From an archaeon (lineage in GTDB: Archaea; Iainarchaeota; Iainarchaeia; Iainarchaeales; 1-14-0-10-31-34), in NCBI GenBank assembly GCA_043819075.1, contig JBDRFE010000059.1:1-41106 (forward strand): 41,106 nt of DNA, in the 5' to 3' direction. The position numbers were made by a program. This document shows positions 33,001 through 36,000 of this stretch, in pieces. How positions within the stretch are numbered: position 1 is the first letter of the stretch; every line of letters begins with the position of its first letter.

Positions 33001-36000
33001 TTCCAAAAACAAGTATTTTTTGTTTCATAAACAATTAATTGAATTAAATATAAGTATTTAAAACCCTTTCAGCATTAGTTTTTTTTATGAGCCAGTCAAA
33101 AGGATTTTTTCTTGTTTTGCTTACTGCAATAATAAGCGGAATAAGCATTTTCTTAAACGCTTTTGCTGTTCAGGGCTTTGACAACGCATTTGTTTTCACC
33201 GGAATGAAAAACTTAATTGTAGCAGTATTCTTAATTTCAGTAATTGTATTGTCCGGCCAGCTTAATTCAGTCAAAAATTTGACAAAAAAACAATGGCTTT
33301 CACTTTCTTTTATCGGCTTAATCGGCGGAAGCATTCCATTCTTATTGTATTTTTATGCACTGAAATTGTCAACTGCTTCTGCTGCAGGATTTTTGCATAA
33401 AACAATTTTTGTTTGGGCAACAATTCTTGCATTCTTTTTTCTGAAAGAAAAGCTTTCAAAAAAAATTGTTTTCGGCGCACTGCTTCTTTTAACAGGAAAC
33501 TTCTTTTTATTTAACTCAAGTTTTTCTTTTGGATTTCCTGAACTGCTTGTATTTATTGCTGTCTTGTTCTGGTCAGCAGAAAACGTTTTGTCAAAACATG
33601 TTTTGAAGGATTTAAGCTCAACAGTTGTTGCTGGAGGAAGAATGTTTTTCGGCTCTGCATTCATTTTGTTGTTCCTGTTGTTTTCAAACCAGCTTTCAGT
33701 TATTTCAGTTTATTCAGCTGGACAATGGAGCTGGATTCTGTTAACTTCTTTCCTGTTGTTTTTGTATGTTTTGACTTTTTATTCTGGTTTAAAGCATTTA
33801 AGTGTTTCAGCTGCAACTTCAGTTCTTTTGTTGGGCCAGCCGATTACTGCTTTGCTTAGCTTAATTTTTTTAGGCAAAACAATTTCTTTTTCAGAAGCAT
33901 TTGGTTTGGTTTTGATTGTATGCGGAGTAATAATTATTGCAGGCTTTTCTTTTTTTGTTCAGGCTTTAAGGTTAACAGGTTTTTTTGTTGGACCAGAAAA
34001 AAATTGATTCTCTTGTAAAAGCGTGCAGGTATTCTTTTATTTCAAACAAGAAAAATTATTGCGGAACAACTGATGCTTTTTCTGAGTTCAAGGATTTCAT
34101 TGAAAACCCTTTGCCTGAAAAAACAAATAAAATTGAAACTCTTTTCATGAGCTTTGAAGCCCTTTACCCTTATCTTAAACTGATTGCAAAAGCAAACAAG
34201 CTTTCTCCTTTGGATGAAAAAGTAGTTGACGCTTACTGGATTGGAAACGAATTGCTTGAAAAAGTTTCTTTGGATGAAACAAAAGAAATGATTTTAGCTG
34301 ATTTTGTCAAGCCCGGGTTACTTCCGAAAAGCATTGCATTAAAAAAAGCTGAAAGCATTCCTTTTGGTTCTGTTCCGCATCATTCTTTTCATGTTTTGTT
34401 CATTAATTTTGTTTCAAGAAAAGTTGAGCCGGTTTTAAAAAACCTTGACAGCTGTTTAATTAGCTGGGGTAAAATAAAAGAAGTGAAAGAAAATTCTTTG
34501 GTTGTTGATTCAGTTCAGCTTGTTTTTGATTCAGGAGAATTCAAACTCAAAGAAAAGCGCAAGGCAATTGATTCCGGCCTTGTTTCTGGAGCAGAAAAAA
34601 ATTCTTTTGTTTCAGTTCACTGGGATTTTGCTGTTGAATTAATTGAAAAACAACAGCTTAAATCTTTGAAGCATTTCACTGAAAAAAACATTACTGCAGT
34701 GAATTCTTTTTTGTAATCATTTCAGGCAAAGCTTTATATTCATTGAACTAATAATCTTTTTATGGCTGTACCAAAACCTAGAGGAAAAATTGCAAGAGGC
34801 TTGAGAGCTTTAAGGCTTAAAAAATTAACTAGGCTCAGGCAGAGCCAAAAAAGAAAAAAAACCCTTGGCCAGATGAGAACTGTCAGTAATGTATTAGCAG
34901 AAATGCGCGGGCCAGGCAGGCCGACCAGCCATAGATTCAAACTATTCATTGATGGATACACAAAAACTTTAGAGAATTCTGTTAACTCAAAAAGAAAAAA
35001 ACTCAAGCGCCAGAGAAAAGGCGTGTTTTAATTTTTTTTATATTACGTCTTCTTTTTTTATTTTTTCTATTACCATGCCCTGCTGGACTAAAACATATTC
35101 TCCTTTAACGGCTTTTTCTGCATTAATTGCCTCAATTTTTTTTCCCTGTGAGTCAATTACTGCAATTCTTCCGTTTTCCTTTAATTCAGTTATTTTTCCT
35201 GCTAATGCAAGGCACATAAACAAAAATATGCCTGAAACATTTTTAATTCAATTCCATGTTTTTCCCTGAATTCATTTAAAACCTTTTTTCTATTTAATTT
35301 TGAAATGAAATTAGAGTTAACAAAAAAAACCTGGCTAAGGCTTTTGCTGCTGCCCTTGCTTTTGTATTCTTTTTATTTAGCAAAGCTTCCGATTGAAATA
35401 ATAATTATTTTTGGCTTATTTTTTTTGCTGATAATTTTGTTCAGGACACATTTTTACGACAAAATTGAGTTTCTTTTAGGCGAAAAATTTCCTGTAATTC
35501 ATGACTGGCATCCATGGCAGAAAAAAGCCATTATAATCATTGTATTTATTTTAATTTACACTGTAATAAAACAACTGCTGTATTTTTCCATGGACTTCTT
35601 TTTTGGCTTAAACATTGAGAAAATGGTGTTAGAAAGCATGAATTACCAGTCTTTTGAATAAACCTTTTTAATTCTTTGATTCCATTAAATAACTCAGGTG
35701 TGCTGAATCAAGATATCTTTTTTCAATGTTTTAAAAATAATTAAAAGAACTTTTAATGACAAGGAAGTAAGAGTCTTATTAATCATAGTTTTTTTCAGTG
35801 TTTTAGCTGGAGGATTTGTTTACCATCATTTTGAGCACTGGAGTTTTTTTGATGCAGTTTATTTTTCTGTTGTCACTTTAACTACAATAGGCTACGGAGA
35901 CCTTTACCCGCTGACTTTTGCCGGAAAACTGTTTACAATCTTTTATGTTTTCATCGGAATCGGATTAATTTTTTTGTTCATTAACAGGGTTGCATCCAAT

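What a model noticed while it worked through the whole genome (the two positions that open the first line are those of the whole stretch)
33985..34716. DUF6390 is a HypC-like domain behind a new Cys/His helical domain and marks the Hyp-less [NiFe] hydrogenases: candidate [...]
g01027 (243 aa, Pfam DUF6390, no known function) lies between the [NiFe] hydrogenase genes and hypC. Its C-terminal third (aa 155-240) is a HypC fold and sequence relative: C157-L-I-S-W-G-K-I aligns with the M-C2-L-A-L-A-G-K-I start of the genome's own HypC, and V-S-V-H-W-D-F-A with the canonical HypC V-H-V-G-F-A motif (recalled). It is preceded by a 155-aa all-helical domain with no structural match that carries invariant C26, H132/H133, H136. 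In Iainarchaeales the family occurs almost only in genomes with the hydrogenase, next to hypC, and never together with HypD/E/F. I propose that it replaces the HypC-HypD scaffold in the assembly or delivery of the iron part of the NiFe cofactor in DPA [...]
Evidence so far: Six-frame search of 196 Iainarchaeales genomes: DUF6390 in 58. Overlaps computed in call 172 from calls 145, 147, 153, 166: 57 of 70 hydrogenase genomes against 1 of 126 others (Fisher p 2e-35; kin are not independent); 0 of the 4 HypD/F genomes; with HypC on one contig in 46 of 50 genomes that have both, starts <=1.5 kb apart in 38. Call 167: 158 homologues, DPANN and Patescibacteria MAGs, one cluster (P0670) with HypC and DUF6390 Pfam domains in one protein, one named 'hydrogenase maturation factor' by JGI. 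Alignment A5 of 30: invariant C, G, H, C, H, W columns. AlphaFold model from A5 pLDDT 97, pTM 0.93; best PDB matches are HypC of T. kodakarensis: Foldseek E 0.037, prob 1.00, TM 0.73 on [...]
(Added by a program. Inside this text positions count along the whole contig: contig position 1 is position 1 of the stretch shown here. "Call 12" and the like, gene names such as g00115 and contig names such as C1 are that model's own, and its searches are not shown. The text may have been shortened before it was handed on; [...] marks where a part breaks off. The agent that wrote the report below was given it as the finding of a first reader that could run no searches.)

Follow-up and report, generated by a model that had tools for sequence, protein, structure and literature searches.

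The report
Importer-coupled hydrogenase maturation without HypDEF
Many archaea and bacteria keep normal-looking nickel-iron hydrogenases but lack three genes thought essential for making the enzyme's iron-cyanide-carbonyl centre, and instead carry this unstudied HypC-related protein beside a dedicated transporter, which suggests (untested) that they take up the iron unit ready-made.

Summary
The gene, coordinates and HypC-like C-terminal domain are confirmed (profile-profile E 3e-10, C157=Cys2, H212=HypC His; structural Z 9.8). Exclusion with HypD holds in the window's order (0 of 58) and extends to Chloroflexota (0 of 32 DUF6390 genomes have HypD, against 135 of 269 others; HypE/F also missing). 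It is not family-wide: a Mycobacterium-like clade and Sulfobacillus carry DUF6390 inside full hyp operons (77 of 80 loci behind hypD). A specific EamA permease flanks or fuses with DUF6390; in Chloroflexota one of two substrate-binding ABC importers replaces it (28 of 32 genomes carry exactly one of the three; none of the HypD genomes tested carries a close member). A short DUF6390 homologue fills the slot in 6 of 10 DUF-less hydrogenase genomes. Best reading: import and hand-over of a preformed Fe(CN)2CO-type unit on a two-Cys/His site (0.45). Rivals are a de novo scaffold and nickel handling. Nothing is tested biochemically. The scan noted the EamA-DUF6390-HypC module before on other DNA (11 notes), and Jaffe 2020 probably saw it as fam002.

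The parts
33985..34716 (+). DUF6390 protein, 243 aa: helical domain (aa 1-155) packed on a HypC-type OB fold (aa 155-239) with a closing helix; conserved C26 (34060-62), H133 (34381-83), C157 (34453-55), H212 (34618-20)
34447..34701 (+). HypC-like domain of DUF6390 (C157 = HypC Cys2, H212 = HypC His)
33087..34007 (+). EamA/DMT permease of a DUF6390-specific subfamily; stop overlaps the DUF6390 start by 23 nt; fused to DUF6390 in relatives (P0089, P0215, P0268)
35038..35217 (-). HypC with N-terminal Met-Cys but Gln in place of the conserved His; convergent with DUF6390
32630..33034 (-). hydrogenase maturation endopeptidase (HycI family), 134 aa
31338..32633 (+). [NiFe]-hydrogenase large subunit, group 3b-like; RICGTC and DPCMSC motifs, APRG and VVPT motifs, 7-residue cleavable tail
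30872..31357 (+). short (161 aa) hydrogenase small subunit, as in the 'hyd2' type of Jaffe et al. 2020

Best explanation
DUF6390 is the receiving protein of an uptake route that replaces HypD/E/F. Inferred steps: (1) a dedicated transporter (EamA permease here; a family-5 or a family-1/6 substrate-binding ABC importer in some Chloroflexota) brings in a preformed low-spin iron cyano-carbonyl complex, for example Fe(CN)2CO still bound to thiols or peptides released from other cells' hydrogenases or HypC; (2) DUF6390 holds it in the cleft between its helical and HypC domains on two thiolates, C26 and C157, as HypD Cys41 and HypC Cys2 do, with H133/H136/H212 as hydrogen-bond or ligand residues; (3) the unit passes to the separate HypC, which keeps Cys2 but often loses the His used to bind HypD, or goes directly to the apo-large subunit where HypC is absent; (4) nickel insertion (HypA where present) and tail cleavage follow as usual. 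Where HypDEF coexist (Mycobacterium-like clade, Sulfobacillus) no such transporter was seen in the loci, and the protein would store or recycle the cell's own unit. Shown: fold, conserved residues, gene partners, distribution. Inferred: the cargo, the direction of EamA transport, metal binding and every transfer step.
For: HypD absent from 58 of 58 DUF6390 genomes of the order, 32 of 32 Chloroflexota (Fisher 2e-9, kin not independent) and 49 of 50 genomes behind scan loci. HypF and HypE absent from 69 of 70 DUF6390 genomes tested, including single-contig G083 (99% complete), and present in 4 of 4 HypD controls. Large subunits keep the Cys motifs (88 and 94 of 96) and the APRG and VxP[TS] motifs (85 and 83 of 96) (their role in binding CN is recalled), across groups 1, 3b and 4. 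EamA within 1.5 kb in 15 of 15 archaeal and 45 of 70 Patescibacteria-type loci, with fusions. That EamA subfamily is in 16 of 301 Chloroflexota, all DUF6390-positive, and in 0 of 5 HypDEF genomes. The two substrate-binding subfamilies are in 7 and 5 of 32 DUF6390 genomes and in 0 of 48 HypD genomes at comparable scores; the three sets do not overlap. G199 and G374 were not in the training alignment. HypC His kept in 6 of 6 hypD-linked copies but 13 of 46 others; that His aids HypD binding (PMC9002611, passages). Covariation places the helical domain on the His212 strand (Y16-S210 z 16, S156-D214 z 10.7, L138-L158, Y25-P131).
Against: No metal, ligand or transport measurement exists. Eight of 9 Patescibacteria-type genomes without a local EamA lack the full permease genome-wide (small incomplete genomes; 3 have a half-size EamA); one of the 9 has it elsewhere. 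The family-5 binding proteins score best against nickel NikA (below cut-off), and a NiCoT nickel permease motif lies in 11 of 80 Mycobacterium-like loci, so the transporters may carry nickel. Characterised EamA proteins are often exporters (recalled). No free Fe(CN)2CO pool in the environment is known to me. C157 is internal, and the mutual position of C26, H133, C157 and H212 could not be measured (C26-C157 coupling is weak, rank 183). Transporter alignments were built largely from the same loci, and lineages are clustered. One HypD genome (G433) has a more distant family-5 relative (E 3e-107).
Confidence: 0.45

Rival explanations
1. De novo scaffold: DUF6390 is a one-chain HypCD substitute on which Fe, CN and CO are assembled from small precursors (free cyanide, thiocyanate, hexacyanoferrate, CO, or unrecognised enzymes); the transporter supplies a precursor or removes a toxic by-product.
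For: The same exclusion of HypDEF; two conserved Cys plus His as in the HypCD site (PMC11565642, passages); DUF6390 is present where no transporter is found.
Against: No conserved enzyme gene emerged among neighbours within 3.5 kb (ferredoxin/NifU, proteases, FAD oxidoreductase, PFOR, ABC genes); only two conserved Cys, so no HypD-type [4Fe-4S] or disulfide relay; three unrelated transporters fill the neighbouring slot.
Confidence: 0.2
2. Nickel (or plain iron) uptake and chaperone module: the transporters import Ni2+, DUF6390 is a Cys2His2 metallochaperone or sensor, and the loss of HypDEF is covered by something else.
For: NikA-like best hits; NiCoT motif in 11 of 80 Mycobacterium-like loci; the window's genome lacks HypA and HypB; coexistence with HypDEF in 77 of 80 such loci; one PadR-DUF6390 fusion.
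Against: HypD genomes need nickel too, yet lack close members of all three transporter subfamilies; hypA, and sometimes hypB, sit beside DUF6390 in Chloroflexota; the homology is to the iron carrier HypC; it leaves the Fe(CN)2CO source unexplained.
Confidence: 0.2
3. These enzymes do not carry Fe(CN)2CO: DUF6390 installs a different centre (iron without CN, or nickel only), or the enzymes are inactive relics or are matured with help from a host cell.
For: No activity is on record in the papers read (Jaffe 2020 calls the function of hyd2 uncertain); most hyd2-type genomes also lack HypC (over cut-off in 11 of 43).
Against: Cys, APRG and VxP[TS] motifs, cleavable tails and proteases are conserved; the pattern holds in Chloroflexota genomes of 1.7-7.7 Mb, not only in tiny symbionts; sister genomes run the same enzyme type with HypDEF (G180, G183).
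Confidence: 0.1
4. Missing hyp genes are an artefact of incomplete genomes, and DUF6390 is only an accessory HoxV/HupF-like helper everywhere.
For: Most genomes are incomplete assemblies; coexistence with HypDEF in Mycobacterium, Sulfobacillus and G529.
Against: 0 of 32 against 135 of 269 in one sample; single-contig G083 lacks D, E and F; alternative cassettes within genera.
Confidence: 0.05

Closest known systems
HypC/HybG/HupF chaperones (PF01455, TIGR00074; PDB 2z1c, 3vyr, 2ot2)
   Same: OB fold plus C-terminal helix, Cys at the start of strand 1, conserved His; encoded with [NiFe]-hydrogenases.
   Different: The Cys is internal behind a 155-aa helical domain with a further Cys and His; below the Pfam cut-off; a separate true HypC is often encoded too.
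HypC-HypD scaffold (Fe bound by HypC Cys2 and HypD Cys41; PMC11565642 and PMC12134894, passages)
   Same: Proposed two-thiolate site with nearby His; occupies the same place in the pathway.
   Different: One chain; no HypD homology detected in any search; only two conserved Cys; no HypE/HypF partners; coupled to a transporter.
HoxL-HoxV / HupF-HupK Fe(CN)2CO relay and storage proteins (PMC12134894, passages)
   Same: Accessory carrier of the finished iron unit; a good analogue for the copies that coexist with HypDEF.
   Different: HoxV/HupK are large-subunit homologues and are fed by HypCD; DUF6390 is HypC-derived and mostly occurs without HypD.
fam002 of Patescibacteria hyd1/hyd2 hydrogenases (Jaffe et al. 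2020, PMC7304191, passages)
   Same: A family shared by both hydrogenase types, 'some members' homologous to HypC; probably DUF6390.
   Different: Identity not verifiable (term absent from the 4 supplements held as text); the passages found say nothing on missing HypDEF, transporters or mechanism.
Cofactor salvage systems such as BtuFCD for vitamin B12 (recalled); maturase-less [FeFe]-hydrogenases (PMC11216029, passages)
   Same: Logic of a transporter standing in for a biosynthetic pathway; hydrogenases encoded without known maturases.
   Different: No uptake of a hydrogenase metal unit turned up in the searches made; protein families differ.

Membership tests
DUF6390 (PF19927) | score above the Pfam cut-off over the full model | tested here: met
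   131 bits against cut-off 25, model 10-239 of 244
HypC/HupF (PF01455) | OB fold with C-terminal helix | tested here: met
   VIA Z 9.8, rmsd 1.9, 71 aligned to 2z1c_A; next non-HypC Z 6.9; profile hits only HypC in PDB sequences, E 0.004
HypC/HupF (PF01455) | free N-terminal Cys2 | tested here: not met
   the equivalent Cys is residue 157 of a continuous ORF; processing not testable
HypC/HupF (PF01455) | conserved His (E. coli His51) | tested here: met
   H212, 244 of 244
HypC/HupF (PF01455) | score above the family cut-off | tested here: not met
   15.7 bits against 28.5
HypC/HupF (PF01455) | binds Fe(CN)2CO, HypD or the apo-large subunit | not testable with these tools
   needs infrared spectroscopy and pull-downs
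HypD (PF01924) | sequence or fold homology; [4Fe-4S] and redox Cys set | tested here: inconclusive
   no HypD hit in Pfam, NCBIfam or PDB sequence searches and only two conserved Cys; helical domain not folded alone
HoxV/HupK | homology to the hydrogenase large subunit | tested here: not met
   no PF00374 or large-subunit model hit at E 0.1
Canonical Hyp maturation system | HypA-F encoded in the genome | tested here: not met
   G000 (90.55% complete) has HypC only; no HypD, HypF zinc finger or HypA match, and HypE and HypB only below cut-off
[NiFe]-hydrogenase large subunit | two CxxC motifs, APRG and VxP[TS] motifs (recalled as CN/CO pocket), cleavable tail | tested here: met
   PF00374 above cut-off
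Cofactor salvage system | importer whose cargo is the cofactor or its precursor | not testable with these tools
   distribution fits; cargo unknown

The most novel reading that the evidence does not exclude
Microbes in at least three phyla scavenge the organometallic Fe(CN)2CO unit of [NiFe]-hydrogenase from their surroundings or host, through three independently recruited transporters and a single-chain HypC-derived receptor, so that this unit is a shared resource in communities, like a vitamin; HypDEF-bearing actinobacteria use the same receptor to recycle it.
Probability: 0.35. Interest if true: 0.95.

Novelty: categorically new. Interest (0 to 1): 0.82.

Why it matters
A 2025 review states that six Hyp proteins are necessary for the cofactor of all [NiFe]-hydrogenases and that the anaerobic CO source is unresolved (PMC12134894, abstract and passages). 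Here about one in ten sampled Chloroflexota (32 of 301), 58 of 196 genomes of an archaeal order and many Patescibacteria keep intact hydrogenases with a substitute module. If it works, the Hyp requirement is not universal, hydrogenases now dismissed for lacking maturases may be active, and a two- or three-gene route fed with a synthetic iron complex could simplify recombinant [NiFe]-hydrogenase production. The parts are known folds; the pathway is what is new.

Tried and rejected
Complex prediction of large subunit + DUF6390 + Fe gave no verdict (score 0.00 against mark 0.32); not used either way. No RNA holder listed for the locus; contigs only. ESM Atlas search with aa 1-155 gave no usable hit. 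The helical domain was not folded alone, so no claim of a new fold; structure searches of both models were filled by OB folds (the short homologue's HypC hits, Z 7.2 and 7.0, are tied with unrelated OB folds). Search for longer forms with alignment A2 looked only at 987-2815 aa proteins and found none; repeated with the single protein. The careful tree did not finish; the quick tree is cited with that caveat. Rejected: a HypC-DUF6390 fusion (P0039 is one domain set); the 89-aa ORF 34762-35031 as part of the module (no family; replaced and frameshifted in a related contig); a replacement of HypA/B only. Literature: 'DUF6390' 0 papers; combinations listed no paper whose title or abstract start describes the module; most subscription papers are not searched.
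Full report
OBSERVATION. The ORF at 33985-34716 (+) encodes 243 aa and scores 131 bits against DUF6390, with a weak HypC hit at aa 183-226. The locus reads small subunit, large subunit, protease (minus strand), EamA permease, DUF6390, an 89-aa ORF without family, and hypC (minus strand). The genome (90.55% complete) gave no match for HypD, the HypF zinc finger or HypA, and only sub-cut-off matches for HypE and HypB. A contig from a public run bridges the end of EamA, DUF6390 and hypC.

ANATOMY. The model (149 sequences, pLDDT 97.7) has helices to residue 157, an OB fold and a closing helix. The best structural matches are HypC (Z 9.8, rmsd 1.9, 71 aligned; 2ot2 Z 8.3; next unrelated 6.9; Foldseek E 0.022). 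A family profile hits only HypC among PDB sequences. Profile comparison with 52 HypC sequences gives 96.8%, E 3e-10, with C157 on Cys2 and H212 on the His column. Among 244 full-length homologues (of 265 held) C26, H133, C157 and H212 occur in 238, 244, 242 and 244; H132 and H136 in 219 and 208. In 209 locus-derived copies the four residues, H136 and W213 are nearly invariant in all four groups. Covariation from 449 sequences puts helix 1 on the strand carrying H212 and links 156-214, 138-158 and 25-131; this fits one cleft but does not measure it, and the direct C26-C157 coupling is weak. In HypCD the iron is held by HypC Cys2 and HypD Cys41, with a His hydrogen-bonded to CN (PMC11565642, passages), which is the template for my two-thiolate reading.

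DISTRIBUTION. In the window's order DUF6390 is in 58 of 196 genomes and HypD in 4 of 196, with no overlap. The window's large subunit found 54 genomes, 44 with DUF6390. Eleven of the 14 DUF-only genomes are family f10; 4 of the 5 f10 loci fetched show a NuoD-like group 4 large subunit with four Cys. In f10, the two genomes without DUF6390 are the two with hypC-hypD-hypE-hypF, in genera whose other members have EamA-DUF6390-hypC. Of 10 hydrogenase genomes without DUF6390, 2 have HypD and HypF, 6 have a 157-181-aa homologue beside hypC and EamA (profile comparison 97.6%, E 2.7e-12, C157 and H212 aligned, N-terminal Cys out of register), and 2 are unresolved. In 301 genomes of the phylum of a locus titled Chloroflexota, DUF6390 is in 32 and HypD in 135, overlap 0 (three HypD genomes are flagged unpublished; kin are not independent). 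HypD was in 1 of 50 genomes behind the 80 scan loci and 0 of 3 more. HypF and HypE were in 1 of 70 DUF6390 genomes (G529), 0 of 2 short-homologue genomes and 4 of 4 HypD controls. HypC passed its cut-off in only 11 of 43 Patescibacteria-type genomes. Among 96 large subunits (a few from HypD loci) the two Cys motifs, APRG and VxP[TS] were matched in 88, 94, 85 and 83 (the pocket role of the last two is recalled).

COUNTER-CASES. The only two plasmid hits carry DUF6390 inside complete hyp operons: Sulfobacillus acidophilus and Mycobacterium intracellulare subsp. chimaera. With the Mycobacterium protein as query, 77 of the best 80 metagenome loci (of 177) have hypD upstream, the other three starting within 100 bases of the gene; none had the EamA or binding-protein subfamilies, and 11 had a NiCoT motif. 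In a quick tree of 102 rows (30 of 69 Patescibacteria-type and 12 of the metagenome copies drawn at random) this clade is a long branch inside Chloroflexota copies, which suggests but does not show that coexistence is derived. So DUF6390 is not a marker of Hyp-less genomes as such.

THE TRANSPORTER SLOT. An EamA of one subfamily lies within 1.5 kb in 15 of 15 archaeal loci, 45 of 70 Patescibacteria-type loci and 16 of 32 Chloroflexota loci counted, and is fused to DUF6390 in P0089, P0215 and P0268. Its profile matched 16 of 301 Chloroflexota, all DUF6390-positive (many were in the alignment, so the test is the 0 of 269), and 0 of 5 HypDEF genomes (positive control G083). Where EamA is missing in Chloroflexota, DUF6390 abuts a family-5 binding-protein ABC operon (best hit NikA, below cut-off) or a family-1/6 one. 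These subfamilies were in 7 and 5 of 32 DUF6390 genomes; among 48 of the 135 HypD genomes there was none at comparable score, G433 matching the first at E 3e-107 against 1e-228 or better. The three sets are disjoint and cover 28 of 32; of the rest, G441 and G465 have other or broken family-5 genes adjacent, and G449 and G455 are short contigs. Binding-protein ABC systems are importers (established knowledge). Against universality: of 9 Patescibacteria-type genomes without a local EamA, 1 has it elsewhere and 8 lack the full permease; most loci of this type that carry the short homologue beside DUF6390 lack a local EamA, which I cannot explain.

HYPC CHANGES WITH IT. The His that helps HypC bind HypD (PMC9002611, abstract and passages) is kept in 6 of 6 hypD-linked copies and 13 of 46 others, including Gln in the window. 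Alignment A4 left out 8 of the 59 rows listed and the rows my start pattern missed; one left-out row is the second Sulfobacillus HypC, which lacks the His in a record that has HypD.

MECHANISM. The simplest account of a HypC-derived two-Cys protein that replaces the scaffold and both cyanide-making enzymes, and that travels with one of three transporters, is uptake and hand-over of a finished or nearly finished iron unit (0.45). The unit on HypCD is reported O2-insensitive and moves by thiol transfer (PMC12134894, passages), which makes survival outside a cell conceivable; no environmental pool is known to me. Assembly from small precursors (0.2), nickel handling (0.2), a non-canonical or inactive centre (0.1) and artefact (0.05) remain. 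That the module stands in for HypDEF by some route I put near 0.7.

PRIOR KNOWLEDGE. 'DUF6390' is in none of the library's papers. Jaffe et al. 2020 (passages) report fam002 beside both Patescibacteria hydrogenase types, some members resembling HypC; it is probably this family, but the 4 supplements held as text do not name it, and figures or other files may bear on this. Greening et al. 2024 (passages) describe maturase-less [FeFe]-hydrogenases. PMC2799521 (passages) gives the M. smegmatis order hypC-hypF...hypE-hypC-hypD, matching the Mycobacterium-like loci. Other searches were seen as listings only. This scan has noted the EamA-DUF6390-HypC module in 11 other findings (8 shown); they agree but are not independent evidence. 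No note held all the words of my two searches for the ABC substitution.

VERDICT. Mechanism untested. Interest 0.82.

Noticed in passing
L108:7104-7577, L109:2043-2588, L143, L145, L146, L148; L006-L008, L010, L012, L022, L028, L032, L033, L038, L057: Short (138-186 aa) DUF6390 homologue missed by the DUF6390 model: replaces DUF6390 in 6 archaeal genomes and accompanies it in 11 Patescibacteria-type loci, mostly those without EamA and HypC.
   Followed up: partly
window 30251-30814 (+): FKBP-type prolyl isomerase with an N-terminal hydrophobic leader directly upstream of the small subunit; SlyD, an FKBP, aids nickel insertion in E. coli (recalled), but no His-rich tail is present.
   Followed up: no
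window 34762-35031 (+): 89-aa very basic ORF between DUF6390 and hypC with no family; divergent and partly replaced in a related contig.
   Followed up: partly
P0226: PadR transcription regulator fused in frame to DUF6390 (one cluster); may be a read-through of two genes.
   Followed up: no
L061, L063, L066, L070, L076, L077, L079, L081: Large subunits that end at the last His with no cleavable tail and no protease in the locus; these loci have HypC, whereas tail-bearing hyd2 loci mostly do not.
   Followed up: partly
G529 (L056, L150): Patescibacteria-type genome with DUF6390 plus hypF-hypC-hypD-hypE and no EamA of the subfamily.
   Followed up: partly
L206:3448-4566 and 38 other metagenome loci: A phosphodiesterase/nucleotide pyrophosphatase-family gene lies within 3.5 kb of DUF6390 in 39 Mycobacterium-like loci.
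   Followed up: no
L005:11052-11762: 236-aa protein with a HypC domain at its C-terminus beside an SIS-domain gene in the Mycobacterium hyp operon; a second kind of internal HypC domain.
   Followed up: no
L112 (G394), G406, G463: Genomes with two DUF6390 copies, mostly beside different hydrogenase clusters, suggesting enzyme-specific paralogues.
   Followed up: no
window 28142-29761 (-): 539-aa lipoprotein-like ORF with many Cys-rich repeats and no Pfam hit.
   Followed up: no
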